From NCBI RefSeq assembly GCF_054482525.1, contig NZ_CM137006.1: a stretch of 64,000 nt of DNA; one strand, 5' to 3'. The notes under the pieces were generated by a model, which made no database searches, was not told the DNA's origin, and worked only from the letters and a program-made list of their open reading frames with translations. A program made the position numbers and the translations under genes. Positions 13,585 through 33,384 of the stretch are shown here, in pieces; the first letter of the stretch is position 1, and every line of letters begins with the position of its first letter.

Positions 13585-14568
13585 TTAGTCGAAAATGCGC
13601 ACAAGGCCAGTGACTTTATTTGCCTTGTTGGTCACCAATAACGTTGAGACGCGGTGCTTTTGCATTTTTTCTTCCGCTTCAATGATCATGGTGTCTTCCG
13701 GTAGCGTCAGCGGTTCACGTGTCATCATCTGCGCAGCCGTGGCGGATGTCAGAGAATCCTCTTTTTCCATAAAGCGACGCAGGTCACCGTCGGTGATAAT
13801 GCCCGCTAGCCCACCTTCTGCGTCTTCTACCATCACCATTCCCTGGCATCCGCTGGTGATACGTTGAATCACGGTTTTAAATGACGCATCCAGCTGTACC
13901 GCAGGAACATCATGCTGCATGACATCAGCAACGCGGGTCAGCAGGCGACGACCTAATGAACCGCCCGGGTGATAGCGCGCAAAATCATTCGGCATAAATT
14001 TGCGTTGGTGGATCATGGCAATCGCCAGCGCATCGCCGATCGCCATCGTCAGCGTGGTAGACGTTGTTGGTGCAAGATTATTCGGGCAGGTTTCATTCGC
14101 CATGTGGAGTTCCAGCACGGCATCAGCATTTTTCGCCAGCGTGGAATTTCCATTATTGGTAATGGCGATAATTCGGTTGCCGAAATTTTTCAGTGAAGGA
14201 ACTAGCTTGAGGATTTCATCCGTTTCACCGCTGGCAGAAATAAGGATCAGAAGATCGTAAGGCGTAATCATGCCCAGATCGCCATGGAAAGCTTCTGCAG
14301 GATGAATAAAGAAACTAGGCGTACCCGTAGAGGCCAGCGTCGCTGACATTTTACGACCGACATGCCCTGATTTACCCATTCCCGAAAGAATAACGTGACC
14401 TTTACAGTTCATTATCAAATTAAGGACACGCTGGTACTGCCCGGAATCCAGTTGTTTAGACAAGTTTTGTAATGCTGCGCCTTGTTCTGCCAGAGTCTGG
14501 CGAACAGAGGTAATTAGATATGGATCGATAGTACTGCTCTGGTCATCAGGTAAATGTCTTTCAGACAT
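13585..14568 (-). CDS. kpsF: Arabinose-5-phosphate isomerase KpsF
   Basis: SIS domain plus CBS pair. Start placed at ATG 14568 (MSERHLPDD), preceded by AAAGGAG, giving 327 aa; the track ORF begins 36 nt upstream at 14604. Confidence 0.85.
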   Translation of the reverse strand: MSERHLPDDQSSTIDPYLITSVRQTLAEQGAALQNLSKQLDSGQYQRVLNLIMNCKGHVILSGMGKSGHVGRKMSATLASTGTPSFFIHPAEAFHGDLGMITPYDLLILISASGETDEILKLVPSLKNFGNRIIAITNNGNSTLAKNADAVLELHMANETCPNNLAPTTSTTLTMAIGDALAIAMIHQRKFMPNDFARYHPGGSLGRRLLTRVADVMQHDVPAVQLDASFKTVIQRITSGCQGMVMVEDAEGGLAGIITDGDLRRFMEKEDSLTSATAAQMMTREPLTLPEDTMIIEAEEKMQKHRVSTLLVTNKANKVTGLVRIFD

Positions 14569-14604
14569 ATCAGCTCCTTTGCACGGAAATAATGCCACAG
14601 TCAC

Positions 14605-15296: not shown

Positions 15297-16722
15297 TAAT
15301 GCCGATCAGTTAAGGATCAGTTGACCGATCCAGTGGCTGTGTAAGAATCCGGAAACGCTCACTTGTTTCCGGATTTTTTTATGCACATTGGACAGGCTCT
15401 TGATCTGGTATCCCGTTACGATTCTCTGCGTAACCCACTGACTTCTCTGGGGGATTACCTCGACCCCGAACTCATCTCTCGTTGCCTTGCCGAATCAGGT
15501 ACTGTAACGCTACGCAAGCGCCGTCTTCCCCTCGAAATGATGGTCTGGTGTATTGTTGGCATGGCGCTTGAGCGTAAAGAACCTCTTCACCAGATTGTGA
15601 ATCGCCTGGACATCATGCTGCCGGGCAATCGCCCCTTCGTTGCCCCCAGTGCCGTTATTCAGGCCCGCCAGCGCCTGGGAAGTGAGGCTGTCCGCCGCGT
15701 GTTCACGAAAACAGCGCAGCTCTGGCATAACGCCACGCCGCATCCGCACTGGTGCGGCCTGACCCTGCTGGCCATCGATGGTGTGTTCTGGCGCACACCG
15801 GATACACTAGAGAACGATGCAGCCTTCCCCCGCCAGACACATGCCGGGAACCCGGCGCTCTACCCGCAGGTCAAAATGGTCTGCCAGATGGAACTGACCA
15901 GCCATCTGCTGACGGCTGCAGCCTTCGGCACGATGAAGAACAGCGAAAATGAGCTTGCTGAGCAACTTATAGAACAAACCGGCGATAACACTCTGACGTT
16001 AATGGATAAAGGTTATTACTCACTGGGACTGTTAAATGCCTGGAGCCTGGCGGGAGAACACCGCCACTGGATGATACCTCTCAGAAAGGGAGCGCAATAT
16101 GAAGAGATCAGAAAACTGGGTAAAGGCGATCATCTGGTGAAGCTGAAAACCAGCCCGCAGGCACGAAAAAAGTGGCCGGGACTGGGAAATGAAGTGACAG
16201 CCCGCCTGCTGACCGTGACGCGCAAAGGAAAAGTCTGCCATCTGCTGACGTCGATGACGGACGCCATGCGCTTCCCCGGAGGAGAAATGGCGGATCTGTA
16301 CAGTCATCGCTGGGAAATCGAACTGGGATACAGGGAGATAAAACAGACGATGCAACTGAGCAGGCTGACGCTGAGAAGTAAAAAACCGGAGCTTGTGGAG
16401 CAAGAGCTGTGGGGTGTCTTACTGGCTTATAATCTGGTGAGATATCAGATGATTAAAATGGCGGAACATCTGAAAGGTTACTGGCCGAATCAACTGAGTT
16501 TCTCAGAATCATGCGGAATGGTGATGAGAATGCTGATGACATTGCAGGGCGCTTCACCGGGACGTATACCGGAGCTGATGCGCGATCTTGCAAGTATGGG
16601 ACAACTTGTGAAATTACCGACAAGAAGGGAAAGGGCCTTCCCGAGAGTGGTAAAGGAGAGGCCCTGGAAATACCCCACAGCCCCGAAAAAGAGCCAGTCA
16701 GTTGCTTAACTGACTGGCATTA
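15297..16722 (+). mobile_element. IS4 insertion sequence, 1426 bp, intact
   Basis: Terminal inverted repeats TAATGCCGATCAGTTAAGG (15297-) and CCTTAACTGACTGGCATTA (-16722); 11-bp direct repeat CAATCATCAGG at 15286-15296 and 16723-16733. Confidence 0.9.
15363..16709 (+). CDS. IS4 transposase
   Basis: 448-aa ORF inside IS4; true start may be the internal MHIGQALDL Met. Confidence 0.9.
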
Positions 16723-16814
16723 CAATCATCAGGCTCTTTTTGAGTCATATGCGCCGATAATCAACTGTCTTGAACGTAACAATTATGGAGCAACATGATG
16801 CTACGATTCATTTC

Positions 16815-17000
16815 ACTCTTCGTTCTTTCTGAGCATTGCGTTCAGGATGGTCAGCAATTTACGCATACAGTCAACCAGCGCCACTTTTTTGGTTTTTCCG
16901 GCTGCTGACAGATGCATGTAAAACGCCTTTATCACCGGATTAAACCAGGTTACCACAAGCGCTGCCATGTGCAGGGCTGCTCTTGCCTCCGTACGCGCAC
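16815..17000 (-). pseudogene. IS110-family transposase, C-terminal fragment
   Basis: Minus-strand translation ends ...VALVDCMRKLLTILNAMLRKNEE*, the conserved IS110-family C-terminus; no N-terminal part. Similar DNA at 56393-56460. Confidence 0.5.
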
Positions 17001-17162
17001 TGGCGTCGTTCGGCCAGCAGATATGTGTGGGATAACAGGGATGTTATGTGAACTGAACTGTGTTTTGTTAACGGGGGATGTTTATTGATGATTCGGTAGT
17101 GTTTAAGACCTGATGGCGTTATGCTCCCAAGTTTATTTTATATAAAGATCCAAAAGCAAAAA

Positions 17163-17180
17163 CCCGCCTTGTGGGCGGGT
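17163..17180. terminator. GC-rich hairpin (CCCGCC-TTGT-GGGCGGG) flanked by A/T runs
   Basis: Perfect short stem-loop with A-run before and T-run after; next to the tRNA-like repeat. Confidence 0.35.
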
Positions 17181-17193
17181 TCTTTAGAATTAG

Positions 17194-17215
17194 TGGTGCC
17201 GGACTCGGAATCGAA
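17194..17215 (-). repeat. tRNA-Phe 3'-end-like 22-nt repeat (island att-site remnant)
   Basis: TGGTGCCGGACTCGGAATCGAA is the reverse complement of a tRNA-Phe acceptor/T-arm 3' end with one base missing; no full tRNA present. Confidence 0.5.
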
Positions 17216-17325: not shown

Positions 17326-18168
17326 TCAGGCTGAGAGCACAGAAGGAAAGTACCTGGCTATTATATCGTTAATTCTGTCAATCAGTTCCAGCCTTTTGAA
17401 AGTGATGTGTGCAGATCCCTTCTTAAAGTATTTAATGATGAACATCTCGTCTTCATAGCGCTCTTTACCCTGAACGGACTGGATGTGACCATCCAGACGA
17501 ATAGTGATGTTTTCCCGGTTGTCGGGGATCGGTTTGCCGCTGAACAGATGTAGCATTCTTTCCAGGTCGACGAGTCGGTCAGTCTGTTGCCCGGTGATAA
17601 GATGAAACCCCCACCGGTCCCACCTCACCAGGTTGTTGACGATAATTTTACTGCCAAATTTGCAGGGGCAATTGGTTTTGTAATTCCAGCTCAGTCCCCT
17701 GAAGACGTTGATCACCCCTCGCTCAAACACCTCATCCTTATTCTGGTGTAGTTGTTCAAATGTGCTCAGAATGTTCGCTTCACTGATTTCCGGAAAATTA
17801 TCGTGCTCCAGTGACCGGTACCATGTATCACGGGCCTGTGCATCCATTAAGGAAAGCATCCCTGAACGTTGCATCAGGTCACGCCAGATTTCGCGATCGA
17901 GATTGCGTGTGATAGCTTTCATTGCGGTTTCCGGTTTCTCCATCAGCCAGCAGCCGCAGCGAAAATCCTGTTTCATGGCCCAGTCCGGGGCGGCTTTACC
18001 GCCAATACTTTCTGTCATTGCTGAGATTTCAGCCAGTTGCCGGATAAGTGTGTCGATTTGCAGCAGTGTACTTTTTCGTACAGCCAGAATGTGGCGGATA
18101 CTGGTTGAGCAGATAACGTCCGTATGCCCGGTGACCACTTCCGGATGGGAGATTGTGATGTTTGACAT
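17326..18168 (-). CDS. Conserved island protein, probably DUF4942 family (CP4-44-like module, copy 1)
   Basis: 280 aa; paralog of 45243-46109; occupies the module-terminal position after the YeeW-like genes. Confidence 0.6.
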   Translation of the reverse strand: MSNITISHPEVVTGHTDVICSTSIRHILAVRKSTLLQIDTLIRQLAEISAMTESIGGKAAPDWAMKQDFRCGCWLMEKPETAMKAITRNLDREIWRDLMQRSGMLSLMDAQARDTWYRSLEHDNFPEISEANILSTFEQLHQNKDEVFERGVINVFRGLSWNYKTNCPCKFGSKIIVNNLVRWDRWGFHLITGQQTDRLVDLERMLHLFSGKPIPDNRENITIRLDGHIQSVQGKERYEDEMFIIKYFKKGSAHITFKRLELIDRINDIIARYFPSVLSA

Positions 18169-18252
18169 TATCGGTTTCCCTTTTGGTTTATAAACGAAAA
18201 CGCCAGCCGTATTCAGGCTGGCGTCAGGGTAATGAAGCGTGGTGAGTGATAT

Positions 18253-18450
18253 TCACCGGTTCTGGTGCAGAAGCTGCAGATGACGCAGGGTACGGACATC
18301 CTCTCTGGCCTGTTCGATACAGGGCAACAGTGCTGCCGAATCCGTTCTATCCTCATCGTTGTCAAAGATAATTCCCGATTCGCAGTCGATATTGTCCTGC
18401 AGCCACGCAATGAGGATATCCAGCGCTGTTTCCGTGGTTAATGATTTCAT
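18253..18450 (-). CDS. Small conserved protein downstream of yeeW-like gene (copy 1)
   Basis: MKSLTTETALDILIAWLQDNIDCESGIIFDNDEDR...; start placed at ATG 18450 behind AGGAACAAC; paralog at 46194-46391. Confidence 0.5.
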   Translation of the reverse strand: MKSLTTETALDILIAWLQDNIDCESGIIFDNDEDRTDSAALLPCIEQAREDVRTLRHLQLLHQNR

Positions 18451-18461
18451 GTTGTTCCTGG

Positions 18462-18950
18462 TTATCAGTCGAAAGTGGGCAGGTCCGGCAGACATTCAGC
18501 GCTGGCATCCAGATGAATGAGACTGACGCCATAACGTTGGATGAGTGTGACAAACAGACGACGGAACGTTTTTGACAGCCCCAGGCGTTTAAGCCGCAGA
18601 ACCGGATATGATCACGCATCGGTACGTAACAGATATCCGCTACCTGTGAAATGAATCCATTCTGATTCGCCGAAGTCACTGGTCTGGTGTGACAGTGAGT
18701 ACAACCAGGCGTTGTCCGTTTCCGTGATATGTGCGGTACTGCAGCGTATGCCGGCAAGGGTTGCAAATGGCGGTGGTGTGCAGGTTGACTGTTGGTCGGA
18801 TTCCTCTGCCACACGGAGTGAATAATCGTTTTCAGCGACGTTATTAATCAGTTCAGTGAGATTAACACCATCGACGTCAACGACAATTCGCCCCATGTTC
18901 AGTGCCTGCACATTAATGCTGTCGGCTTCCAGCATCAGGGAAAGTTTCAT
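18462..18950 (-). pseudogene. YeeW-like protein, truncated by a TGA nonsense codon at codon 113 (copy 1)
   Basis: Copy 2 (46403-46894) reads through TGG (W) where copy 1 has TGA; downstream frame in copy 1 still encodes SYPVLRLKRLG... Confidence 0.55.
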
Positions 18951-19321
18951 CGTTTCTCCGGATGCTTACCCAGGGTAATGTTATTTACCGTTCTGTAATT
19001 GTCGCGGGTCATCAGGCCGGTCGCCCTGCGAGCCCGGAGGATATCGATGCTGTTTATTAACTGAGAGCGGGTACAGGCACTGAATTCCGGCTGGTCGGTA
19101 CGCACCAGTGCGTATTTTTCAACAAGAAAGTTCACTGCATCGCACAGTGAAATGCCAGCTTCAATATGCTGCTCAATCACACGTTCATCGGCGAACGGTG
19201 TGTCATTCAGCGTAAGGCCGTAATGCTGGTCCAGCAACCGGGACAGCAGTGTCTGCCAGATGGTGACGGGAGACGGGCAGCGCGATGCCTCCCGTACGTG
19301 TGTGTCGGGTAATGTTTTCAT
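18947..19321 (-). CDS. cbtA: CbtA/YeeV-family toxin
   Basis: 124 aa, [56 protein letters not shown]... Confidence 0.85.
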
Positions 19322-19410
19322 ACTGAAGGTTTTCCTGATATGCAGAGATGAAAAATGGAAAAGTGGCGTGGTGAAAGCACCAGGCCGGAGCAGAAGGTTA
19401 TTCCGGTGGT

Positions 19411-19791
19411 TTACTTTTTCGTTTCGGATGTTGGATAAACAGCCAGATAAACGTAACCACAGCTGCCGAGGGTGTCGGCTTCGCAGGTCAGCCCTTTCGC
19501 ATACAGTGTGACGGTATGCTGATGGCGGGGATTCAGTTCACCGCCGGTGAGCATGAGTTCCAGTTGTTTCATCAGCAGCGGAAAGGCCTGGTCCAGGTGG
19601 TACGCATCCGCGTCGCTGAACAGGCCTCTGATACCGGCGCGGTCGGCAAGGTAATGCAACCGGTTACCCTCCTGCACCAGACGTGCCCCGAAACAGGGCG
19701 TCACGGTGCAGGGTAGCCCCCCACCAGGGGCGGTTGTTGTTGTCGGGATGCGTTGTCCCGGGGAGTGTGTCTGACACGATAAAATCCTCAC
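19411..19791 (-). CDS. cbeA: CbeA/YeeU-family antitoxin, N-terminal frameshift relative to copy 2
   Basis: Residues after ~25 match YeeU ([31 protein letters not shown]...); copy 1 has a 6-C run at 19727-19732 where copy 2 has 5. Confidence 0.7.
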
Positions 19792-19856
19792 AGAAAATCG
19801 GTTAAGAATGGTCCGGTGGTGGCGATAATTCTGCTCATCTGAATGCCCTTCCAGAC

Positions 19857-20078
19857 TCAGTTCAGGGTGACGCTCATCAGCCGGACATACGGGCCAAAAC
19901 TGTCCTTACGGCGTTCAGCAAACACAGCCAGCACACCGGGAATATCCTGCACTTCACGACCGGTATACGTCTCAGCACTGCCGTGCCAGCGGTACTTACC
20001 GGTACAGAACGGAAAAAGACGGGATGCAGGATGCTGTTGGTGAATACGCATGGCTTCACCACGGGTGATAATTTTCAT
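19857..20078 (-). CDS. yeeT: DUF987/YeeT-like protein
   Basis: 73 aa, MKIITRGEAMRIHQQHPASRLFPFCTGKYRWHG...; conserved position between radC-like and cbeA. Confidence 0.7.
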   Translation of the reverse strand: MKIITRGEAMRIHQQHPASRLFPFCTGKYRWHGSAETYTGREVQDIPGVLAVFAERRKDSFGPYVRLMSVTLN

Positions 20079-20146
20079 GATGGGATACCTCTGAAGACAG
20101 AAGATAAAAGTGAAAACAAGTGTGATGTGGTTGTGACGGTGACGGG

Positions 20147-20638
20147 TTAAAGCAGACCGTGTTCGGCAAAGGAGAAAACCTGGTTGCCACCGACTATCAG
20201 ATGGTCCGGCACCCGGATATCCACCAGGCCCAGTGCCTGTACCAGACGTTCCGTGATAAGGCGGTCTGCCTTACTGGGTGTGACTTCACCGGACGGGTGA
20301 TTGTGCGCCAGCACCACGGCAGCGGCATTGTGGTACAGGGCGCGTTTAATCACTTCCCGGGGATGGACTTCCGTGCGGTTGATGGTGCCGGTGAAGAGGG
20401 TTTCACCGGCAATCAGCTGATTCTGGTTATTCAGATACAGTACCCGGAACTCTTCACGCTCCAGTCCCGCCATGTTCAGAATCAGCCATTCCCGTGCCGC
20501 ACGGGTGGAGGTGAAGGCCACGCCGGGTTCATGAAGATGGCGTTCCAGGGTTTTCAGGGCCCGCAGAATGAGACTGCGCTCGCCGGGCGTCATCTCTCCT
20601 GGCAGAAAGGAAAGTTGTTGCATTGTGCTTCTCTCCAT
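20147..20638 (-). CDS. yeeS: RadC-like JAB-domain protein (YeeS/YkfG/YfjY family)
   Basis: 163 aa; JAMM-like motif HNHPSGEVTPSKAD. Confidence 0.85.
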   Translation of the reverse strand: MERSTMQQLSFLPGEMTPGERSLILRALKTLERHLHEPGVAFTSTRAAREWLILNMAGLEREEFRVLYLNNQNQLIAGETLFTGTINRTEVHPREVIKRALYHNAAAVVLAHNHPSGEVTPSKADRLITERLVQALGLVDIRVPDHLIVGGNQVFSFAEHGLL

Positions 20639-21124
20639 TCAGTCGATGATGCGCATAATGGCGCTGCATTCCGGATGCTGCAGGGCGTAATCCCGCAGCC
20701 GGTAATAATGGACCGTCATGGCATAACACTCCGTACGACAGGCATGATGACTGTACGTCATCAGACAGGCAGCAATGCCGGCGGCTTCCGGGCTCATTTC
20801 AGCGCGGTTACCGTTCATGACATTGAACAGTACCCATGTTTCGTCATCATCGTCATCCGGTTCGGGTGCCATAAATGCCCCTCCGTTATTCAGTGTGTAC
20901 AGATTCCAGATACCACCGCAGTAGTCTTCACACAGACGGTCCATCCAGCCGAAGACACGGGGCTCCAGGGTCACCCACTGTGGAATGAGGCCAAAGTGCT
21001 GTGGCCAGAAGCTGATGCACTGTTCATCAGGGACGGGAGTGGCAACCAGTTGAGACTGGTTATTCCCTGATGCAGTAGTTACGGAAACAGAAGGTGTGGT
21101 GGAATTATGTGAAACGGTTGTCAT
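20639..21124 (-). CDS. Antirestriction protein (KlcA/ArdB-like, YfjX/YafX family)
   Basis: Start placed at ATG 21124 (MTTVSHNS...) behind AAGGA; acidic DDDDDE stretch; paralog at 48551-49036. Confidence 0.8.
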   Translation of the reverse strand: MTTVSHNSTTPSVSVTTASGNNQSQLVATPVPDEQCISFWPQHFGLIPQWVTLEPRVFGWMDRLCEDYCGGIWNLYTLNNGGAFMAPEPDDDDDETWVLFNVMNGNRAEMSPEAAGIAACLMTYSHHACRTECYAMTVHYYRLRDYALQHPECSAIMRIID

Positions 21125-21214
21125 GATATTATTCCTTATAAAAAGCAAATGAATGAAGAAGGCTCGGGGGCAGGGACAGACGTGAGTCAGGACGGCGCTT
21201 TCAGGTAAACGGTA

Positions 21215-22033
21215 TCAGCGCATGTTCTCCAGCAGCGTTTCCGCCATCACCCATAATGCGCGATTGAGCTTAATATCGGTGTCGATGCTGTGAATGGCCC
21301 GGGTATGGATACGTTTTCCTCTGGCACTGCGGCCGGAAATTCCGCCTTTCAGCATATTCTCCTGGATGGTCTGATATGCGCTCCACAGGTCCTTACCGTA
21401 ATCCTCCCTGCGTCGTGGCGTAAGAATGTCAGCGGTGGTGACGGGCTGATGTTCGTCACCATAACGGTAAGTCAGGGCCGCCTGTGCCAGCGCCTGGCGT
21501 GCCGGTGGCGGCAGGACCAGCGACTGCATGGCATCACGCTTCTCCTCTATCCGGTCAAACACGCCCACCACCTCGTAAGCCCCTTCGATAACTTTCTCCA
21601 CTACATTTCCCCGGTGTGGAACACGCACTTCCCCCAGAGACTGGCCACAGACGCACCCGTTCTGGCAGACGAACCTGAAGTAACCCGGCAGCATCTGGTA
21701 GCTGGAGGTACCGTCATGAGAGTTGAGCAGAATAATTTCAGGGACATGTTCTCCGTTTATCTCTCCGGCCCGCCGCAGACGCAGCATGTGTTTGGTATAT
21801 TCCCGGCGGCTCTGGTCGCGCACACGGGTCTGGCAGGCGAAGAACGGCTGAAAGCCTTCCCGCTGCAGATTTTCCAGGACGGTAATGGTGGGAATGTACG
21901 CATACCGTTCACTGCGGGAGGTGTGCCGGTCTTCCCCAAAAATACTGGGTACATGGCGTATCAGTTCTTCATGTGTCAGCGGACGGTCACGGCGTATCTG
22001 GTTTACATGACCAAAACGACTTGCTAATCGCAT
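21215..22033 (-). CDS. DUF932-family protein (YfjQ/YafZ-like)
   Basis: 272 aa; conserved module position; paralog at 49128-49946. Confidence 0.7.
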   Translation of the reverse strand: MRLASRFGHVNQIRRDRPLTHEELIRHVPSIFGEDRHTSRSERYAYIPTITVLENLQREGFQPFFACQTRVRDQSRREYTKHMLRLRRAGEINGEHVPEIILLNSHDGTSSYQMLPGYFRFVCQNGCVCGQSLGEVRVPHRGNVVEKVIEGAYEVVGVFDRIEEKRDAMQSLVLPPPARQALAQAALTYRYGDEHQPVTTADILTPRRREDYGKDLWSAYQTIQENMLKGGISGRSARGKRIHTRAIHSIDTDIKLNRALWVMAETLLENMR

Positions 22034-22123
22034 GATTTGCTCCTTATGAATGAGTTAGCGGTATAAATGAAAAAGCCGCGTCTTCTGGAGAAGACGCGGC
22101 CTGATGGATCAAGTGAATGACGT

Positions 22124-22357
22124 TTATTGCCTGAGAATTCCCTCACTGGCGAGATACGGATTTAGCTGTTTTCCGGCATCAGGTTCAAAATTCCAGCACC
22201 GCCAGCGTAGCTGCCCTTCAGCATTGCGAATAACCAACCGGAAATGTGTTCCCTGGTCATCTTCAATAAGCACATTAAGGTAAGCCGTTGTGACGGCAAG
22301 TGCCTGGTTGCGTGAGAAAGGGCCTTCGGGCAATAAACGTGATGTACAACCCGGCAT
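22124..22357 (-). CDS. DUF905-family small protein
   Basis: 77 aa; paralog at 50037-50246 (…[15 protein letters not shown]…). Confidence 0.6.
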
Positions 22358-22427
22358 ATCTGTTGCTCCCTGTAAGTAAAAGGCCCCGGTAATGATGACC
22401 GGGGCCTGAAGGGGAGTGACCTGATTA

Positions 22428-25274
22428 TCAGAAAGTCACGTTCAGTGTGGCCTGACCGTTATAACCTTCAGCGCTGCTGCCGCTGACACTGTGGGCATAA
22501 CCGGCCTGAACGCCCAGGGTGATATTTTCCCGGACACGGGCTTCCAGTCCGGCCTGCAGGTCCAGTGACGTGCCATTCTGGGACGGTGAGAACGTCATGT
22601 TACTGCCGGCTGCGGCTGTACCCATGCTCATGTCTCCCCGGGAGCTGAAGGTGCGGATAACAGAAGGCTGTACCCACCAGTTCACCGGCAGTTCACTCAC
22701 GCTGTGTTTGGCACTGTCGCGCAGGGTGTCACGGGATGAGGTGCCTTCGCCAAAGGTCATATCGTTGTGGCTGCCCAGACGGAAACCGGCACGCACATGT
22801 TGTGCACTGCCATGCCCGAACTTCACATAACCGGCGTTATCCTGACCGTCATCCAGGGAGAGCCCCTGCCAGGTGTACTGCAGTTGTGGCTCCAGCATCA
22901 GGTTGTCAGTGATACTGAAGGGCAGACCGGTTTCCAGTGAGCCCAGCCAGCCCCAGCCCCGGGCGCGGAAGTCGTTATTGTCCGATGACGCTTTCATGCT
23001 GTGGCGGGTTCCCTGTGCCACAATGTCAGCCCACAGGCCGGAGGATGTGTGTACCAGATTCAGGTATCCGCCCAGACTGCCGGCATCATCCCGGACCGTG
23101 CCGGCGCGGGAGCCGTCATCATCCTTAACATCAACGGAAGAATGGCCTGCAGCACCATACACCCCTGTCGTCAGAGACATACCGGCAACCTCTGTTCTGA
23201 GCAGGTCACCCTCCAGACGGACGAAGCCATAGCTGCCGCTGCTTTCCGGCGTGGCCCCACGGGCAATACCGCCGTTGTTATCGTGCCCGAGATGACCGCC
23301 CTGAATGCTGAGACGGACGCTGTTATTTTCACCGTTTACACCGGTCTGATGGCTGCGGGAGCCTGCCAGAATCCGGTCATAGTCCATTGCCTGTGTCAGC
23401 ATGGAGGCATACAGGGGGACTTCAGCACGATAAGCATTTTCACTGCGCAGGTACCAGTCTTCATCGCTGTCACGGTTCAGGGTGTAGTTAAAGGCGCCGG
23501 CCTGAAGCGGGCGGCTCAGGGCAAACGCACCTTCTTCTGTGGTGGCACCATTCTGTGCATCCACAACCCGGATACCCTGTCCGGTGGTTGCCACCCCGAG
23601 GTTACTGTTTCCGACATTTGTGAACGCAAGCCAGGTTTTGCCGGTTGCCTGGCCACCATTAATCACCAGCTGGTCAGAGGCATTGCTGCCATCAAGGCGA
23701 ACACGCATATTGATGGTGCCCCCCTGACCGGTGAGGTTACTGGTGGTCAGTTTATGGAACGTTACCGGGGAGTCGCCTTTTGCAACAGCACGGCTCAGCG
23801 CGGCATCCGGTGTCGTCTGATTATCAAAGTGAATCTCTCCTGCGTTAACAATATCGCCGGTACTGACCACATCACCATTCAGTACCATGCTGGCGCCTTT
23901 ACTGAGCTGTGTTCTGCCACTCAGACTTCCCCCGGCAGCCAGCGTCAGTGTTCCACGATGTCCGACAGTGGTGTTGCCTGCCTGTCCCCCGGCATTAACC
24001 GTAAAGCTGCCGCCATTTTCCAGTAGCAGGCCGCTGGCCTGCCCGGATATGCCATCAATACTGAACTTACCGCTGGCATTGGTCCCCTCAACAGTGGCAC
24101 CACTGTCTGCTATCAGGGCACCACCGGATGTCATGGTGACATCTGTTGCCTTACCACCGGCAGACACTGCCAGGGTACCGCCGTCATCCACCAGTGTTTT
24201 CTGCGCTGAATGGCCCTCCAGTACATCCAGGCGACCGCCGGACTCCAGAACAACGCCGTCAGCCTTACCGTTTTCCACCGTGAAATTGCCCAGACGGTTG
24301 CTGCCGGTGACGGTTGCCGCCGTACTGGTGACCAGTGCGCCGCCCTGCGTCAGGGTGACATTCGTGGCTGTACCACCGGCGTTCACCTGCAGTTTGCCTT
24401 TCTGGTTAACGGTGGTGAAATCCGCCAGACCACCTTCCTTGATAATCTGCCAGCCGTCACTGTTAACAACAGTGCCAGACGCCGTACCGCCGTTGTGCAC
24501 ATACTGGTACCCCCCATTCAGCGTGGTATCCAGTGCGTGACCATGTACAGTCTGGTCGCCGCCGGCATAAACCACAGTGGTATTTGCCGTTCCTTCAGCA
24601 GCCACAATCTGACGACCATTTTTATTGATGGTGGTGCGTACGGCATCTCCGTAGACGGTCTGCCCGGTATCACCATTTTCCGCATCCGGTCCTCCTTCCG
24701 CGCCAGTATTCACAACCGTGTCGGTTGCCATTGCGCCGGATTTGACGGCCTGCCAGCCCTTCTCATTAATGACGGTACCCGTTGCAATCCCGCCTTCATG
24801 TACCCACTGCTCACCGCCGTTCAGAGTGGTGTTCACTGCCTGCCCCTGAAGGCTCTGTCCGCCTCCGGCCCTGATAACCGTGTCTGAAACGCTTCCTCCG
24901 GCATTCACTCTCTGAAGACCACCACCGGTGACAGTAGTGTTGTTGGCGATACCGCCATTTTGTATCCATTGCCCGCCGGTATTGGCCTCGTTATCCGGCC
25001 CATACTCCAGACCGGTACTGATGGTCATTCCGTTGGCTGTACCGAAGACAATCTGGTTGTCATGATTTTCCAGTGCTCCGCCGCTCACGGTTTCTCCCGC
25101 CTGTACAACCGTGTCAGCAGCCAGTACCGGGAGTGATGTGACAGCAGCAAGAGACAGCGCAACCGCCACACCGGCGCGTTTTCCCCGTGAGCGGGCCAGT
25201 TCGGAGGCCACCACCAGGGTGCCCGTAATGTGATTCCATACCAGCCTGTAGCTGGTGTTCAGATGTCGTTTCAT
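22428..25274 (-). CDS. flu: Antigen 43 (Ag43/Flu) self-associating autotransporter adhesin
   Basis: Start at [18 protein letters not shown] (ATG 25274 behind AAGGAAAA); extended signal peptide, repetitive passenger, C-terminal beta-barrel ending ...[12 protein letters not shown]. Track ORF starts 75 nt upstream. Confidence 0.9.
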
Positions 25275-25487
25275 CAGCTTTTCCTTACAGAGGGTGAATA
25301 AAAAAGCCGGTACCCACAAATGTGGATACCGGCAGGTACAAAACAGCATGGTCAGATAAAGTGGTTTTTCCCGGACATAAATGCTTCCCCTCTCTCATCC
25401 GCCTGAGAAGTATCAGTCCGTTGTGTGCAATTCCGTTCTGCATGATGAAGAGATTCAGCTGCCTTTTCGCAGGCCATTAACCACTAT

Positions 25488-25531
25488 AAACGATCGATAT
25501 AAACGATCGATATCTGTTTTATCGATCGTTT
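25488..25531 (-). promoter_or_regulatory. agn43 phase-variation switch: three GATC sites (Dam/OxyR region)
   Basis: GATC at 25492, 25505 and 25524 inside AAACGATCGATATAAACGATCGATATCTGTTTTATCGATCG, about 220-250 bp upstream of the Ag43 start. Confidence 0.6.
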
Positions 25532-25646
25532 TATTCTATTAATAACAAGGCAGCCACGCAAGAGAAACAGGAGGAGTATGAGGGGTTTGTGTCATGTTTT
25601 CAGTTGGTTAACGCAATGTAATCAGGCATTTCCTCTGGCAGAGTGT

Positions 25647-26519
25647 TCAGAAGAAAATCCAGTTCCATACAGCGCGGGCAACAGAGACCACCGAGTCACG
25701 GACGGCACGCAGAACCGTGCGTGCAACAGAGGCAATACAGACGCTCTCCGCTGTGTCAAATATCCGGTCCACCGCACCGGTAAACTGTTCACGGGCCTGA
25801 GACCGGACAGATTCCGTGCGCAGCTCGTCCTGCAGGCGGGTCATCAGGGGACTGGCGGCATGGTCGGGAAGCGCTGTCATGAGCGCACTGACCAGCGTAT
25901 CCAGTTCCCAGCCGGTGCGGGCCGATACGGCCACAACCGGATGTACGGGCCGGAACAGACGGAATACCGCCTCCGTTTTTTCGCGAATATTCTGTGCCTG
26001 TGCGGGAGAAGGCTGAATACCGGCCATATCCCATTCATGGCAGGGCTCCGTTTTGTCGGCCTGCGTCACCACAAACAGCACCTGCTGATGTCCCCGGTGC
26101 AGGATGTGTCGCCAGAAATACTCATCCACAGACAGGGCGCGGTCATCGGCTTTAATCAGCCACAGCACCAGGTCCAGTTCGGGCAGAATGTCACGGTACA
26201 GGGCTTCATACTCTGCATCTCTGTCCCGGCTCTCGCCCACCCCGGGCAGGTCAGTGATAACCATGCTGTGACCGTGGCCACTCAGACGGAAGCGCCGCAC
26301 TTCCCGGGTGCCGGCGTGAACATCACTGACCGGGGTGACCTCCCCCTGAAACAGTGCATTACAGAGTGAGGATTTACCGGCCCCGCTTTTACCCATAATG
26401 CCAATCACGGGTTCGTGACTGGTGAGTTTGCGCAGATGTTCCAGGATGTGACGGGAAAGTGAGTAAGGCAGGGAGGAGAGCGGTTTTTCAATTGCCTCAA
26501 TGGCATCAGACGGATTCAT
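25647..26519 (-). CDS. yeeP: YeeP/YfjP/YkfA-family GTPase (copy 1)
   Basis: P-loop GIMGKSGAGKSSLCNALF and DLPG motif; start placed at ATG 26519 (the longer track ORF begins with GTG and no SD). Confidence 0.8.
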   Translation of the reverse strand: MNPSDAIEAIEKPLSSLPYSLSRHILEHLRKLTSHEPVIGIMGKSGAGKSSLCNALFQGEVTPVSDVHAGTREVRRFRLSGHGHSMVITDLPGVGESRDRDAEYEALYRDILPELDLVLWLIKADDRALSVDEYFWRHILHRGHQQVLFVVTQADKTEPCHEWDMAGIQPSPAQAQNIREKTEAVFRLFRPVHPVVAVSARTGWELDTLVSALMTALPDHAASPLMTRLQDELRTESVRSQAREQFTGAVDRIFDTAESVCIASVARTVLRAVRDSVVSVARAVWNWIFF

Positions 26520-26748
26520 ACATGTATTCCCGGTGAAAAAAGACAAAACCCCGCACACCGGAAAGATGGCGGGGGGATTCACGGAGATAATATCTGCCTG
26601 AAATTATTTGGAATGCAGGTATATGTGGCTGATTTGTATCAGCTAATGAGTACAGGTCTGAATCTAATCTGACAGTCCGCTCTGTGCCAGGAGCGGACAT
26701 TGTTTTCCAACTATTACCTAAGCCTGCGAACCATCTCATCTTCACCCC

Positions 26749-27636
26749 TTAAATTCTCAATGTATCGATAACCGCTCGTAGGGCGGGTGACACATTGCGG
26801 TGCGGATAATAGATATATGAACCCTCCAGGCGTTGGCTGTAGCATTGCAAAACTCTGATTAGCGCCCCCTGTTCTATATCATCAGACACTAATTCCTCCG
26901 GAACATAGGCCAGCCCCAGACCTAGCCTTGCGGCTTTGGCTTCCATATAACTGTCAGCAAAGGCCCATTGTCCCTGAGGCTGATGGGTGATCTTTTTACC
27001 GTCCTGATTGAGTTCCCAGACATACAGACTGCCGTCGCCGAACTGGTAAGCGATGCAGGGATGACCTACTAAATCGGTGGGGGTTTGTGGAAATCCGTAG
27101 CGCTGAAAGTGCCCGGGCGTGCCGACAACAGCCATCTCCATATCGGGCGAAATGCGCACCGCAACCATACCGCTATCCACTTCCGAGCCCAGACGTATAC
27201 CGGCATCGAAGCGCTCAGTAATAATATCGACAAACCGGCTTTCGCTGATGAGCTCCAGCCGAATATCCGGGTATCGTTGTTTAAACACCGCCAGCTTCGG
27301 CAGCAGCACTTTATCAATGGCGTGCTGGCTCGCATTAATTCGGACCGTACCCGATGGTGTATGGCGATAATGGGCCAGTGTGGCAAGCCCCATATCTAAG
27401 GCGTCAAATCCAGATTCGACGTTTCGATAGAGTAACTCGCCGGCATGGGTGAGCGATAACTTGCGCGTGGTGCGTACCAGAAGCTGCACGCCCAGTCGCT
27501 CTTCCAGCTCGCGCACTGCACGGCTAATTCCTGATTGCGCCAGGCCAAGCCTCTGCGCGGCGGCGGTAAAACTCCCTTCTCGCACGACCTGCATAAACAG
27601 ATAGAGATCGTTATAGTTTTCCCGTTTCGCCATCAT
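26749..27636 (-). CDS. LysR-family transcriptional regulator
   Basis: 295 aa; N-terminal HTH FTAAAQRLGLAQSGISRAVRELEERLGVQLL plus LysR substrate-binding domain. Confidence 0.85.
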   Translation of the reverse strand: MMAKRENYNDLYLFMQVVREGSFTAAAQRLGLAQSGISRAVRELEERLGVQLLVRTTRKLSLTHAGELLYRNVESGFDALDMGLATLAHYRHTPSGTVRINASQHAIDKVLLPKLAVFKQRYPDIRLELISESRFVDIITERFDAGIRLGSEVDSGMVAVRISPDMEMAVVGTPGHFQRYGFPQTPTDLVGHPCIAYQFGDGSLYVWELNQDGKKITHQPQGQWAFADSYMEAKAARLGLGLAYVPEELVSDDIEQGALIRVLQCYSQRLEGSYIYYPHRNVSPALRAVIDTLRI

Positions 27637-27788
27637 CCTTCCCCTGCTGCATCACAATTCAGAACAATATGTTATTAATCTTAGCATTTTTTACCCTCTA
27701 ATTAGCACTATTAATGCTAACTATAATGTGCGCGTTGCAACAAAGCACAGCAGTGTTATCCGTATGAAACCAGTATCTGGCATATTTT

Positions 27789-28940
27789 ATGAGGGGGATT
27801 TTGATGACTGCTTTCACCCAAAAATTGACAGCCGCGATACCCACCATGCTGTTATGCGTATCATTAAGTGGAGTCACAAATATGAGTTACGCTGATACAA
27901 CCAATCCGAACGCGCCCGTTTCGCAGGTCGAGAAATGGGATAAAACTTTTGCTGAGAGCACGAAAGTTGATCACCGTAAGGTGACCTTTCCGAACCGGTA
28001 CGGGATCACCTTAGTCGGGGATCTCTATATACCGAAGGATCGTGGCGATCGCAAGCTGGCAGCAATTGCTGTTAGTGGCCCCTTCGGGGCGGTGAAAGAG
28101 CAATCCAGCGGCCTGTATGCGCAGACGCTGGCTGAACGGGGGTTTGTCACTCTGGCTTTTGACCCTTCATACACGGGTGAAAGCGGTGGCTACCCGCGAA
28201 ACGTCGCATCTCCGGATATCAACACCGAGGATTTCAGCGCGGCGGTTGATTTCTTAGGCCTGCAAAAAGAGGTGGATCGCAACCGTATCGGGTTGCTCGG
28301 CATCTGCGGATGGGGTGGCATGGCCTTAAACGACGCCGCGATGGACACACGTGTCAAGGCGGTGGCGAGCAGCGTGATGTATGACATGAGCCGTGCAATG
28401 GGGCATGGCGTGGGCGATGGCAAAGACCGCTATACCACTGCCGATCGTCGTGCCGTATTGCAGTATTTGAACATGCAGCGCTGGAAGGATGCTGAAAATG
28501 GCGCTTTCGCGCCAGGCGGGCATGATATTTACGTTGATGAGAAGGGCAACGTCACCGCTTCCGATCGTATTTTACCGGAAACTTTGCCAGCGAATTCTAA
28601 TCCGGTATTGAAAGAGTTCTTTGATTATTACCGCATGCCGCGTGGTTTCCATGCGCGTTCGGTCAACTCAACCAGTGCCTGGAATGCAACCATGCCTCTG
28701 TCATTTATGAATATGCCGCTGCTGAGTTACGCTAATGAAGTTACTATCCCTACACTCATCGTGACCGGTGAAAAAGCCCATTCACGCTATTTTGCTGAAG
28801 ATGCCTTTAAGGCAATCGGCAGCAAAGAGAAAGAGTTAGTGATTGTCCCCGAGGCAAACCATGTTGATCTGTACGACAACGTTGCGGGTAAGATCCCATT
28901 TGCCAAATTTGAGCAATTTTTCAAGGCAAACTTAAGATAA
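27789..28940 (+). CDS. Secreted alpha/beta-fold hydrolase (dienelactone-hydrolase-like)
   Basis: 383 aa; signal peptide ending ...NMSYA; GxCxWG nucleophile-elbow-like LGICGWGG; divergent from the LysR gene. Confidence 0.7.
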   Translation: MRGILMTAFTQKLTAAIPTMLLCVSLSGVTNMSYADTTNPNAPVSQVEKWDKTFAESTKVDHRKVTFPNRYGITLVGDLYIPKDRGDRKLAAIAVSGPFGAVKEQSSGLYAQTLAERGFVTLAFDPSYTGESGGYPRNVASPDINTEDFSAAVDFLGLQKEVDRNRIGLLGICGWGGMALNDAAMDTRVKAVASSVMYDMSRAMGHGVGDGKDRYTTADRRAVLQYLNMQRWKDAENGAFAPGGHDIYVDEKGNVTASDRILPETLPANSNPVLKEFFDYYRMPRGFHARSVNSTSAWNATMPLSFMNMPLLSYANEVTIPTLIVTGEKAHSRYFAEDAFKAIGSKEKELVIVPEANHVDLYDNVAGKIPFAKFEQFFKANLR

Positions 28941-29117
28941 CCCGAAAGGTTTACCAGGCCACCTGTCGTAAACGGGTGGCTTTTAACTGCCTGGTGTGAT
29001 GCAGAATATGCCGCATCGCCCTATATTCTCACCCAACTATTATGTCGTTATTCCCTGAATAACTTCTGACCCGATTGCGCTTGAATCTGGCTGGTTCGAT
29101 ATTAAGGGGGGCTAATA

Positions 29118-30311
29118 ATGTCCACTGTAAGTCTCAAACAATTATACGGAAAAACGCATGCATACTGGAGCGGCGTATTCGCCATGACGCTTTGCGTGTT
29201 TGTGCTGATCGCTTCTGAGTTTATGCCAGTCAGCCTGCTTACGCTCATTGCCCATGATTTGCACGTTACCGAAGGGCTGGCAGGGCAAGGAATTGCTGTC
29301 TCTGGTGCGCTGGCGGTGCTTACCAGTCTGACTATCTCCCGTATTGTCGGAGACCTGAATCGAAAATATCTTTTGCTGGGACTGACGGTCTTAATGGCCA
29401 TATCGGGAATAATTATCACTATAGCACCTGACTATCCGGTTTATATGCTGGGGAGGGCTCTGATTGGTGTTGTCATTGGAGGGTTCTGGTCAATGTCGGC
29501 TGCAACCGCCATTCGGCTCGTGCCGCAGCACCAGGTTTCCCGCGCACTGGCAATTTTTAACGGCGGAAACGCACTGGCCACCGTTGTGGCAGCGCCACTT
29601 GGTAGCTATCTGGGGACAACCATCGGCTGGCGTGGGGCCTTTTTATGTCTGGTCCCCCTTGCGATAGCTGCGTTCATCTGGCAATGGGTCAGTCTGCCTC
29701 CGATGGAAAGTGATAAAACACAAAAGCCACAGAGATCTGTGCTTCGCCTGTTCAGCGTTGCCATCGTACCAACGGGACTGCTGGCCTGCGGACTCTTCTT
29801 TATGGGACAGTTTGCTTTATTTACCTACGTGCGCCTCTTTCTGGAGAGCGTCACCAGAGTGGGACCTTCTGATCTTTCTCTGATTTTGCTCGCAATAGGT
29901 GTAGCAGGCTTTGTCGGCACAATGATCGTCTCAACATTCCTGAACACCATATTTTATAAGACCTTAATAATGATCCCGTTGCTTATGGCAGCGATTACCG
30001 GTGCGTTACTGCTGGTCGGACACCATATCTGGGCTGTTGCCGTTTTACTCAGCCTGTGGGGGCTACTTGCGACAGCTGCGCCAACGGGGTGGTGGACATG
30101 GATAGCACGCGCGTTACCCGAAGATGCAGAGACGGGGGGAGGCCTCATGGTTGCAGTGATTCAGTTATCTATTGCACTTGGTTCAACGGCTGGAGGTCTG
30201 GTATTCGACAGTCTGGGATGGAGAAGTGCTTTTGGTTTAAGTGGTTTGTTACTTCTGGGAGCGGTAGCGATGACATGTGCCACATCCCGTCAAAACAGGA
30301 AGGCGCAGTAG
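29118..30311 (+). CDS. MFS transporter
   Basis: 397 aa; about 12 hydrophobic segments; MFS-like motif GDLNRKYLLLG. Confidence 0.85.
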   Translation: MSTVSLKQLYGKTHAYWSGVFAMTLCVFVLIASEFMPVSLLTLIAHDLHVTEGLAGQGIAVSGALAVLTSLTISRIVGDLNRKYLLLGLTVLMAISGIIITIAPDYPVYMLGRALIGVVIGGFWSMSAATAIRLVPQHQVSRALAIFNGGNALATVVAAPLGSYLGTTIGWRGAFLCLVPLAIAAFIWQWVSLPPMESDKTQKPQRSVLRLFSVAIVPTGLLACGLFFMGQFALFTYVRLFLESVTRVGPSDLSLILLAIGVAGFVGTMIVSTFLNTIFYKTLIMIPLLMAAITGALLLVGHHIWAVAVLLSLWGLLATAAPTGWWTWIARALPEDAETGGGLMVAVIQLSIALGSTAGGLVFDSLGWRSAFGLSGLLLLGAVAMTCATSRQNRKAQ

Positions 30312-30843
30312 CGCAATCCTTTTATTTCTGGCGTACGCTCTTTAAGGCATCCGGCTGAGAGGCTAATGATCACTCCTCGCTCACAACGGACCTTCAGCTC
30401 AGCCGCTCCGGCCGCTTCATGCCATGAATGTACGCAGCCAGTCAGAATATTAAGGTGCGGATTTCAGTTCACTTGCCAGCCCAGTGATACAGGACAGTAA
30501 TGACCAACAATTTGGTATTGATACAACAAGTTGCGGCCCCGGTTCGTGGGGGAGATGAAACGAAGGTAGCTGAAGTTACTGAAATGAAGAATTCAGAGAG
30601 ACTGAATGATATGCCTCACCTTTAGTGAATAGTGTAAAAACGGGAGACTCTCACCCGAGATTATCCACTCATGCTCAATGTATAACTTTCGTGCCCCTCA
30701 CAGGTAAGAGCCGGATACATTCGTTGTGTATGCTGCAGAATTGGTAACCGGGGCCCTGCAGTCTTTAACTCCATGTCTTGTGCTGCTCATTTGCCACAAA
30801 ATCCTGGTACGTCTGCTCAATCATTTCATTCAGCAGTTTTTTT

Positions 30844-30852
30844 GGGGGGGGG
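30844..30852. repeat. G9 homopolymer inside a decayed coding region
   Basis: Nine consecutive G; minus-strand translation on either side gives protein-like sequence in two different frames. Confidence 0.5.
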
Positions 30853-33297: not shown

Positions 33298-33384
33298 ATT
33301 CCTCACGGGGGATAACAGGCAGCAGAACGCCGCCGGCAGGCCGGAGATTGCGTCTGCTGTGGGTGAAGGGGCAGTGGTTAAAAA

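What the first reader, a model, noticed from the sequence alone, without database searches (positions are those of the whole stretch)
17160..17215. tRNA-Phe 3'-end-like repeats with adjacent hairpins mark tandem island boundaries
The 19-22-nt copies of a tRNA-Phe 3' end at 17194-17215 and 44319-44340 each have a GC hairpin just beside them (17163-17180, 44287-44306). The right copy is about 200 bp from a P4-type integrase start. This fits an array of islands accreted at a pheV-type tRNA gene, with the kps locus lying outside the left repeat. Inside the left island, int is about 9 kb from alpA with IS100 and nested IS3 elements between them, which points to IS-mediated rearrangement.
Basis: partly seen in the sequence, partly recalled or inferred. 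Interest (0 to 1): 0.5.

Follow-up and report, generated by a model that had tools for sequence, protein, structure and literature searches.

The report
Island boundaries at the pheV tRNA
The two short repeats are leftover copies of the end of a phenylalanine tRNA gene, marking where two mobile genomic islands sit one after the other in an E. coli chromosome; the hairpins beside them are the tRNA's transcription terminators, and all of this is a well-described arrangement.

Summary

- **The repeats.** 17194-17215 and 44319-44340 copy the 3' end of E. coli tRNA-Phe (minus strand), each with a 1-nt deletion. The left one is the published GI-pheV attR, TTCGATTCCGAGTCCGG-CACCA. The right one is the published 19-bp attR type.
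- **The hairpins.** Both look like minus-strand rho-independent terminators. The left one matches the native pheV terminator of K-12 apart from one spacer SNP. The right one belongs to the integrase-proximal arm of island A and also lies downstream of pheU in K-12.
- **Comparative series.**
  - K-12 has an empty site.
  - MS14384 has the identical integrase directly abutting intact pheV.
  - CFT073 has the B-type end joined to the native terminator.
  - Strains 746 and AH50 have the same tandem array, with intact pheV next to yqgA; in 746 it lies about 43 kb beyond the position matching the window's right edge.
- **Surroundings.** kps lies outside the left repeat, with no further repeat beyond it. 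An IS100-adjacent 27.2-kb deletion shortened island A.
- **Side result.** The left repeat's 1-nt deletion accompanies this island family's distal arm at 10 or more different left flanks. It therefore looks element-borne, which would place strand exchange in the last 7 bp of the tRNA gene.

The parts
13585..14604 (-). kpsF, the last gene of kps region 1; lies outside the island array
   Evidence: ORF. Annotated KpsF/GutQ or SIS-domain protein in AH50 and 2452.
15363..16709 (+). IS4 transposase ORF, inserted between kpsF and the IS110 fragment
   Evidence: CFT073 lacks this IS4 at the position. Many metagenome loci match the kpsF-to-IS110-fragment stretch in two pieces, consistent with its absence there.
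16813..16995 (-). IS110-family transposase fragment between kps and the pheV terminator remnant
   Evidence: Annotation in AH50, 2452 and CFT073.
17139..17193 (-). Native pheV downstream remnant, about 55 bp, containing the putative pheV rho-independent terminator (hairpin 17158-17184)
   Evidence: Matches the K-12 sequence immediately 3' of pheV apart from one spacer SNP; similarity to K-12 stops at about 17139. Terminator call and fold.
17194..17215 (-). Distal attR of the array: the last 23 nt of tRNA-Phe minus one C (22 nt)
   Evidence: Identical to the attR TTCGATTCCGAGTCCGG-CACCA listed in Table 1 of PMC11537424.
17216..17325 (.). Distal arm of island A, with a candidate integrase arm-type site CAATTATACCCGCA at 17276-17289
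   Evidence: The 14-nt motif is shared with the integrase-proximal arm at 44182-44195. This arm family recurs in 70 or more metagenome loci.
17326..42858 (.). Body of island A: DUF4942, CbtA/CbeA-type toxin-antitoxin, RadC, antirestriction, Ag43, GTPase, LysR/hydrolase/MFS cargo, AlpA, Gp2-like, IS100, MarR, IS3-family element
   Evidence: ORFs; annotation of the 99.7-100% identical AH50 region.
33385..33570 (-). AlpA-family small HTH protein; candidate excision regulator or directionality factor of island A
   Evidence: ORF. Annotated AlpA family in AH50. Weak NCBIfam 'excise' domain hit, below the cutoff.
37337..39290 (-). IS100 (IS21 family). Its left end is the junction of a 27.2-kb deletion relative to strain 746
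   Evidence: Window 37341 matches L008 17546 and window 37337 matches L008 44773. Junction sequences. The zinc-ribbon gene is annotated as truncated in AH50 and intact in 746.
41052..42646 (-). Degenerate IS3-family element bounded by 23-nt inverted repeats; it abuts a fragment of another IS3-type orfA (40604-41022)
   Evidence: Annotated as frameshifted with an internal stop.
42859..44121 (-). Island A integrase, 420 aa, P4/CP4-type tyrosine recombinase
   Evidence: Pfam Arm-DNA-bind_3, Phage_int_M and Phage_integrase. PDB sequence hits to CP4-like integrase domains. The same protein accession, WP_001596139.1, sits directly beside pheV in MS14384.
44122..44318 (-). Integrase-proximal arm of island A, carrying a putative island-borne tRNA-Phe terminator (hairpin 44285-44308) and candidate arm-type sites at 44174-44195
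   Evidence: Aligned with no differences to the DNA between int and intact pheV in strain 2452, and homologous to the DNA downstream of pheU in K-12. Terminator call and fold.
44319..44340 (-). Internal hybrid att site: the tRNA-proximal att of island A fused to the distal attR of island B. 19 nt of the tRNA-Phe 3' end, a 1-nt gap, then GAA
   Evidence: Matches of island-A-only genomes stop exactly at 44340. The same B-type repeat and arm is joined to the native terminator in CFT073.
44341..64000 (.). Distal part of island B: ParDE toxin-antitoxin, DUF4942, CbtA/CbeA, RadC, antirestriction, GTPase, YfjI, Gp2-like, AlpA-like. It runs off the window
   Evidence: ORFs; annotation of the 99.98% identical strain 746.

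Best explanation
The window covers the far end of a tandem array of integrative genomic islands at the pheV tRNA-Phe gene of an E. coli chromosome (GI-pheV). The tRNA gene is on the minus strand, to the right of the window.

How such an array forms (established model). A P4-type tyrosine integrase recombines an island's attP with the 3' end of the tRNA gene. This leaves a regenerated tRNA beside the integrase end of the island and a short tRNA 3'-end copy at the far end.

The left repeat. 17194-17215 is the terminal attR. Left of it is the original chromosomal DNA that followed pheV, including what appears to be its rho-independent terminator. Beyond that come IS remnants and the kps capsule locus.

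The right repeat. 44319-44340 is an internal junction. On its left is island A's integrase arm, which carries its own terminator-like hairpin for the regenerated tRNA, followed by the intact integrase. On its right is the far end of a second island, B.

What is shown and what is inferred.
- Shown by comparison: the single-island states and the empty site exist in other strains, and the array is bounded by intact pheV in close relatives.
- Inferred: that the integrase made these junctions, that the hairpins terminate tRNA-Phe transcripts, and the order of events. Either B entered the tRNA beside A, or A entered B's attR; both give this structure.

After assembly, island A was shortened by an IS100-adjacent 27.2-kb deletion.
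For: Repeats and flanks.
- Both repeats match the tRNA-Phe 3' end.
- The left flank matches the K-12 pheV downstream region and terminator.
- The right flank matches the K-12 pheU downstream region and the pheV-to-int spacer of strain 2452.
- Both hairpins are terminator-like on the tRNA strand and unusually stable.

Integrase.
- It has the complete three-domain architecture.
- R, HxxR and Y motifs are visible in the alignment.
- 3328 of 5426 complete E. coli genomes hold this int plus arm; in the sampled rows it is usually next to tRNA-Phe.

Natural series.
- K-12 has an empty site.
- MS14384 has the same integrase accession with 100% identical DNA abutting intact pheV and yqgA, and its match ends at window 44340.
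- CFT073 has the B-type arm and repeat fused to the native pheV terminator.
- 746 and AH50 have the same tandem junction, with pheV further to the right: 43 kb beyond the window-end position in 746, and about 80 kb from the left repeat in AH50.
- 2452 has an IS1 deletion that leaves 3.2 kb between the left repeat and pheV.

Prevalence and literature.
- The left junction is present in 541 genomes and the tandem junction in 213 genomes.
- A 14-nt motif is shared by the two arms of island A.
- The attR sequences and the P4-type integrase intP4 of GI-pheV are published (PMC11537424).
- Tandem arrays at tDNAs are published (PMC4383910, PMC7192596).
Against: - The source genome itself could not be read beyond 64000, so the intact pheV is shown only in relatives.
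- Island B has no integrase inside the window. In 746 and AH50 only int fragments, plus a different 394-aa integrase (42% identical) next to pheV, lie to the right, and no further repeat is found there. 'Island B' may therefore be a composite of two or more decayed islands.
- Both repeats are imperfect, which may impair excision.
- No excision product or transcript data were available.
Confidence: 0.9

Rival explanations
1. The right repeat and its flank were imported from the pheU locus by homologous recombination or rearrangement, rather than created by island integration at pheV.
For: Window 44210-44318 is nearly identical to the DNA downstream of pheU in K-12. Almost all E. coli genomes hold that stretch.
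Against: - The same arm with the intact, identical integrase lies directly beside pheV and yqgA in MS14384 and 2452.
- The K-12 pheU flank is itself next to an integrase remnant, yjdQ. It is therefore an old island arm, not pheU-specific DNA.
- Matches of island-A-only genomes end exactly at the repeat.
Confidence: 0.04
2. The two repeats are chance or decayed pseudo-tRNA fragments unrelated to island ends, and the hairpins are terminators of neighbouring protein genes.
For: Each repeat is only 19-22 nt and imperfect. Each hairpin is near the 3' end of another feature.
Against: - No chance matches occurred in shuffles.
- Both repeats sit exactly where similarity to empty-site or single-island genomes breaks.
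- The hairpins with their T-runs are on the tRNA strand and occupy the same position as in K-12 downstream of pheV and pheU.
Confidence: 0.01
3. On the 1-nt deletions only: they are random post-integration decay of displaced tRNA fragments, with strand exchange in the T-loop part of the repeat, rather than an element-borne feature.
For: - The 23-nt block starts exactly at the T-loop, which is the usual reading of such identity blocks.
- The same deletion occurs in longer (29-48 nt) tRNA-Phe fragments next to native-looking terminators in other genera, and in one full-length tRNA-Phe gene in Pantoea.
- A CCC run is the likeliest place in the repeat for a slippage deletion.
Against: - In an allele-neutral metagenome scan, 76 of 79 relevant loci carry the deletion.
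- It occurs beside 10 or more unrelated left flanks. Three of these flank types carry an intact CCC in another context: the pheU locus, an intact intA-type integrase arm and a 394-aa integrase arm.
- The B-type arm next to the same flanks keeps CCC.
- Many independent identical deletions would be required.
Confidence: 0.3

Closest known systems
GI-pheV of E. coli (Nhu et al. 2024, PLoS Genet, PMC11537424), including PAI-CFT073-pheV, PAI V of strain 536 and EC958 GI-pheV
   Same: - Same tRNA target and the same P4-type integrase family.
- The left repeat is letter-for-letter their '23-bp' attR with the gap; the right repeat is their '19-bp' attR type.
- kps lies at the breakpoint beyond attR.
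- Modular content shaped by IS elements and deletions.
   Different: Here both published attR types occur in one array, separated by a complete island with its own integrase. The paper treats GI-pheV as one island and does not use the words 'tandem' or 'terminator'.
Tandem arrays of integrative genetic elements at tRNA genes (Islander, PMC4383910; TIGER, PMC7192596)
   Same: A regenerated tDNA at one end and displaced tDNA fragments marking each unit, with successive integration into a restored att site.
   Different: Only island A meets the strict rule that a unit has its own fragment plus its own integrase. Island B's integrase is outside the window and appears decayed in relatives.
CP4-type cryptic prophage-like elements of E. 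coli K-12 (CP4-6, CP4-44, CP4-57)
   Same: Backbone of GTPase, Ag43, DUF932, antirestriction, RadC, CbeA/CbtA and DUF4942, plus AlpA and a P4-type integrase (annotations). The comparison to K-12 is from my own knowledge.
   Different: Different tRNA target. Extra cargo and IS elements lie between int and alpA, which are neighbours in CP4-57 (own knowledge).
22-bp pheU/pheV direct repeats with a 'frame shift' in LEE-negative STEC (Saile et al. 2018, PMC6174562)
   Same: The same 22-bp repeat with a 1-nt shift relative to K-12, seen at both pheU and pheV.
   Different: That paper reports the shift as 'data not shown' and gives no explanation. Here the shift is shown to follow the island arm across many flanks.

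Membership tests
tRNA-integrated genomic island (Islander/TIGER definition; GI-pheV) | Displaced 3' fragment of the target tRNA gene, in the same orientation as the gene, at the far end of the island | tested here: met
   Both repeats are on the minus strand like pheV in relatives. They match the tRNA-Phe 3' end, and similarity to reference genomes breaks exactly at them.
tRNA-integrated genomic island (Islander/TIGER definition; GI-pheV) | Intact target tRNA gene at the other end of the island or array | tested here: inconclusive
   It is not in the window. It is present beside yqgA in 746, AH50, 2452 and MS14384. The source genome itself could not be read.
tRNA-integrated genomic island (Islander/TIGER definition; GI-pheV) | Tyrosine integrase gene close to the tRNA-proximal end | tested here: met
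   Island A: int 42859-44121, 198 bp from the right repeat, reading away from it.
tRNA-integrated genomic island (Islander/TIGER definition; GI-pheV) | An uninterrupted reference site (attB) exists in a related genome | tested here: met
   In K-12, pheV is followed directly by the same terminator and then yghD.
Tandem island array | [quoted passage not shown] | tested here: inconclusive
   Island A has both. Island B has its fragment (44319-44340) but no integrase in the window. Relatives show only int fragments plus a divergent 394-aa integrase at pheV.
P4/CP4-type tyrosine integrase | Arm-type DNA-binding N-terminal domain, integrase central domain and catalytic domain | tested here: met
   Pfam PF13356, PF22022 and PF00589, with E-values from 3e-29 to 2e-16. 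PDB sequence hits to CP4-like integrase domains.
P4/CP4-type tyrosine integrase | Score above the curated cutoff of the NCBIfam integrase model PRK09692 | tested here: not met
   245 bits against a cutoff of 434. The protein is related to that model but is not a member of that particular curated family.
Rho-independent terminator | G+C-rich stem-loop followed by a T-run on the transcribed strand, directly 3' of the gene | tested here: met
   The positions equal those 3' of pheV and pheU in K-12. Termination itself was not testable here.
Excision-competent island | Circular excision product or empty-site junction detectable | not testable with these tools
   This needs PCR or read-level data. 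No A-A attP-like junction was found in complete E. coli genomes.

The most novel reading that the evidence does not exclude
The missing C in the 22-nt repeat may be a built-in feature of the attP of one widespread family of tRNA-Phe islands, rather than decay.

It travels with the island's distal arm to every new flank: pheV, pheU, other islands' integrase arms and other species. If so, strand exchange must happen within the last 7 bp of the tRNA gene (GGCACCA), and the remaining 15 nt would be a shifted mimic of the T-arm kept for integrase binding. That would revise how the 23-bp 'direct repeat' of these pathogenicity islands is read. It could also explain why attL and attR are never identical.
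Probability: 0.6. Interest if true: 0.35.

Novelty: already known. Interest (0 to 1): 0.2.

Why it matters
The finding correctly delimits the units of a pathogenicity-island array next to the capsule locus, which helps annotation and tracing how virulence and resistance modules were added. It adds no new kind of element: the GI-pheV att sites, its P4-type integrase and tandem accretion at tRNA genes are all published. Two small additions may interest specialists. First, the hairpins beside the repeats look like the tRNA's own terminator and an island-supplied replacement. Second, the 1-nt gap in the common attR appears to be carried by the island, which would point to strand exchange at the very end of the tRNA gene.

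Tried and rejected
- **Looking for the tRNA in the window.** ARAGORN finds none. The gene had to be sought in relatives.
- **Further repeat copies.**
  - None lie between the right repeat and pheV in 746 or AH50.
  - None lie left of kps in AH50, at up to 4 edits or with any shared 12-mer.
  - kps is therefore not bracketed by a repeat, and the islands to the right cannot be split further.
- **A genome matching the whole window.** None was found. AH50 matches 1-46266, except for an IS1 present only in the window. Strain 746 matches 42565-64000. Strain 2452 matches only as far as 18637.
- **A natural attP.**
  - A core-plus-arm pattern gave nothing in genome contigs.
  - The allele-neutral pattern gave nothing in viral contigs.
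  - A synthetic attP of island A found no contiguous match in complete E. coli genomes, only the B-A junction in two pieces. That search was run on E. coli genomes instead of the plasmid collection I had intended.
- **Literature.** Williams 2002 on integration sublocations (PMC100330) is not held, so its classification is cited only through the Islander paper and from memory. A search for a pheV attP or excision paper found nothing.
- **Rejected readings.** Chance repeats and import of the right flank from pheU were both rejected; see the rival explanations.

Full report
**1. Observation**

The two short sequences exist as described. Window 17194-17215 reads TGGTGCCGGACTCGGAATCGAA, and 44319-44340 reads TGGTGCCCGGACTCGGAATGAA. 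The reverse complement of the E. coli K-12 tRNA-Phe 3' end is TGGTGCCCGGACTCGGAATCGAACC.

- The left copy is the last 23 nt of the tRNA minus one C of the CCC run.
- The right copy is 19 exact nt, then a 1-nt gap, then GAA.
- The shared 11-mer occurs only at these two places, against 0.03 expected. No shuffle gave a 25-mer match with up to 3 mismatches.
- ARAGORN finds no tRNA gene in the window.
- Both copies read as the minus strand of a tRNA, so the intact gene should lie to the right.

The two hairpins are also real. The consensus scan calls both terminator-like on the minus strand: 17184-17158 and 44308-44285, each a stem followed by a T-run. As RNA they fold at -18.1 and -17.6 kcal/mol, and none of 200 shuffles folds as well.

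**2. What flanks the repeats**

*Left repeat.* The 55 bp to its left (17139-17193, hairpin included) match the DNA that immediately follows pheV in K-12, apart from one SNP in the spacer. Similarity to K-12 stops at about 17139. The left hairpin is therefore, most likely, the native pheV terminator, and the left repeat is the terminal attR of whatever was inserted at pheV.

*Right repeat.* The sequence to its left (about 44210-44318, hairpin included) is nearly identical to the DNA that follows pheU in K-12. There it sits next to yjdQ, which is annotated only as a pseudogene; I know it as an integrase remnant. The same stretch, with no differences in the alignment, lies between the truncated integrase and intact pheV in strain 2452. 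This 197-bp stretch is therefore the integrase-proximal arm of an island. Its hairpin would be a terminator that the island supplies to the regenerated tRNA gene.

*Integrase.* ORF 42859-44121 (minus strand, 420 aa) starts 198 bp from the right repeat.

- It has the Arm-DNA-bind_3, Phage_int_M and Phage_integrase domains.
- It matches solved CP4-like integrase domains by sequence.
- It shows the R, HxxR and Y motifs in alignment.
- It falls below the curated cutoff of NCBIfam PRK09692.
- 3328 of 5426 complete E. coli genomes hold this int plus arm at 94-98% identity. In the sampled rows it is usually next to a tRNA-Phe.
- On this prevalence and identity it is most likely the common 'intP4' of GI-pheV (PMC11537424).

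**3. Comparative series**

| Strain | State at pheV |
|---|---|
| K-12 | Empty site |
| MS14384 | Identical integrase accession and 100% identical DNA abutting intact pheV and yqgA; its match to the window ends exactly at 44340 |
| CFT073 | B-type repeat and distal arm (TGGTGCCCGGAATCGGAATGAAACTG...) fused directly to the native pheV terminator |
| 746 | 99.98% identical to window 42565-64000; same junction; intact tRNA-Phe beside yqgA about 43 kb past the window-end position |
| AH50 | 99.7-100% identical to window 1-46266; same two repeats; pheV about 80 kb from the left one |
| 2452 | An IS1 deletion leaves only 3.2 kb between the left repeat and pheV |

The left junction is present in 541 complete genomes and the tandem junction in 213. 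This series shows that the window holds two islands in tandem at pheV.

The order of events is not fixed by the structure. Either B entered the tRNA beside A, or A entered B's attR; both give the same product.

**4. Surroundings**

- kpsF and the rest of kps region 1, an IS4 and an IS110 fragment lie left of the pheV terminator remnant.
- Within island A, strain 746 has 27.2 kb (cit, acnB, malX and other genes) that the window lacks. The break lies exactly at the left end of IS100, where a zinc-ribbon gene is truncated. This supports an IS-adjacent deletion.
- An IS3-family element bounded by 23-nt inverted repeats (41052-42646) abuts a fragment of another. True nesting was not shown.
- The two arms of island A share the 14-nt motif CAATTATACCCGCA (17276 and 44182). 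These are candidate arm-type integrase sites.
- To the right of the internal repeat, relatives show no further repeat. They show only integrase fragments and a 394-aa integrase, 42% identical, at pheV. 'Island B' may therefore be a composite of decayed units.

**5. Comparison with the literature**

- Nhu et al. 2024 list TTCGATTCCGAGTCCGG-CACCA as the attR of many GI-pheV islands. They also list a 19-bp type (TTTCATTCCGA.TCCGGGCACCA), name the P4-type integrase gene intP4, and place the end of the island at the breakpoint before kps. The left repeat is the first sequence; the right repeat is the second type.
- Tandem arrays at tRNA genes are a standard concept.
- The finding is therefore already known in kind and in detail. 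Two features are not discussed in the GI-pheV paper: both attR types occurring in one array, and the terminator identity of the hairpins.

**6. Side result on the 1-nt deletion**

*Scans.* A scan of species-representative genomes for the deleted 22-mer found 22 loci in many Enterobacterales genera. That scan could only find the deleted allele. An allele-neutral scan of metagenome contigs (TGGTGCC, optional base, GGACTCGGAATCGAA, then not C) returned 104 stretches. Of the 80 read, 76 carry the deletion, 3 have an intact C and 1 is unrelated.

*Flanks next to the deleted allele:*

- the E. coli pheV terminator, with yghD or with IS110'/kps beyond it;
- the pheU locus (9 or more loci, 7 arm subtypes);
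- an intact intA-type integrase (L041);
- the 394-aa integrase (L104);
- several flanks matching none of the E. coli reference regions tested.

All the right-hand arms belong to one family.

*Reasoning.* The pheU-type arm and the 394-aa integrase arm each carry an intact CCC where they abut a working tRNA. B-type arms next to two of these flank types, the pheV terminator and the pheU-type arm, also keep CCC. The simplest reading is that the deletion belongs to the island's attP. Strand exchange would then lie in the last 7 bp or fewer of the tRNA gene, since otherwise each integration would break the tRNA.

*Caveats.*

- Longer fragments (29-48 nt) with the same deletion occur next to native-looking terminators.
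- One full-length Pantoea tRNA-Phe gene carries it.
- The 23-nt block starts at the T-loop, which is usually read as the crossover site.
- Saile et al. 2018 noted the shift without explaining it.
- I put about 0.6 on the element-borne reading.

**7. Verdict**

Interest is low. The attP question is a modest lead for specialists.

Noticed in passing
window 5799-6566: An IS1 copy with a 9-bp target duplication (TCATTTATT) interrupts a kps region-2 glycosyltransferase gene. That gene is intact in AH50 and 2452, so capsule synthesis may be affected in the source strain.
   Followed up: partly
window 17194-17215; loci L015-L116: The 1-nt deletion of the left repeat recurs in 76 of 79 relevant metagenome loci. 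It sits beside 10 or more different left flanks but always with one family of island arms, so it looks attP-borne.
   Followed up: yes
L016 1473-1547 (Pantoea sp. IMH): A full-length 75-nt tRNA-Phe gene carries the same missing C in its acceptor stem, next to a native-looking terminator. It may be the scar of island loss by recombination to the right of the deletion.
   Followed up: no
window 17276-17289 and 44174-44195: The motif CAATTATACCCGCA / TATACCCGCAATTATACCCACA is shared by the two arms of island A. These are candidate arm-type binding sites for the integrase's N-terminal domain.
   Followed up: partly
window 44585-45171 versus L013 4373-5695 (CFT073): The slot just inside the B-type distal end holds a ParD/ParE toxin-antitoxin pair here but a DUF6088/AbiEii pair in CFT073, so the cargo at the island tip is variable.
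   Followed up: no
window 15363-16709: An IS4 copy sits between kpsF and the IS110 fragment. CFT073 lacks it there, and many metagenome loci match this stretch in two pieces, consistent with its absence.
   Followed up: partly
L005 21579-27000 (strain 746) and L007 29441-38236 (strain 13P484A), just right of the window end: Resistance modules differ between otherwise identical arrays at the same IS1/ISCR2-flanked spot: sul2 with ISCR2 in 746, and floR, tet(A), strAB and sul2 in 13P484A. CTX-M-55 with ISEcp1 interrupts island B in EC26 and M24FEP.
   Followed up: no
L022 and L023 (Xenorhabdus hominickii): Two contigs carry identical copies of a flank resembling the 394-aa-integrase arm (judged by eye), then a 48-nt tRNA-Phe fragment with the deletion, then an arm. 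This could be a repeated tandem junction or an attP-like site.
   Followed up: no
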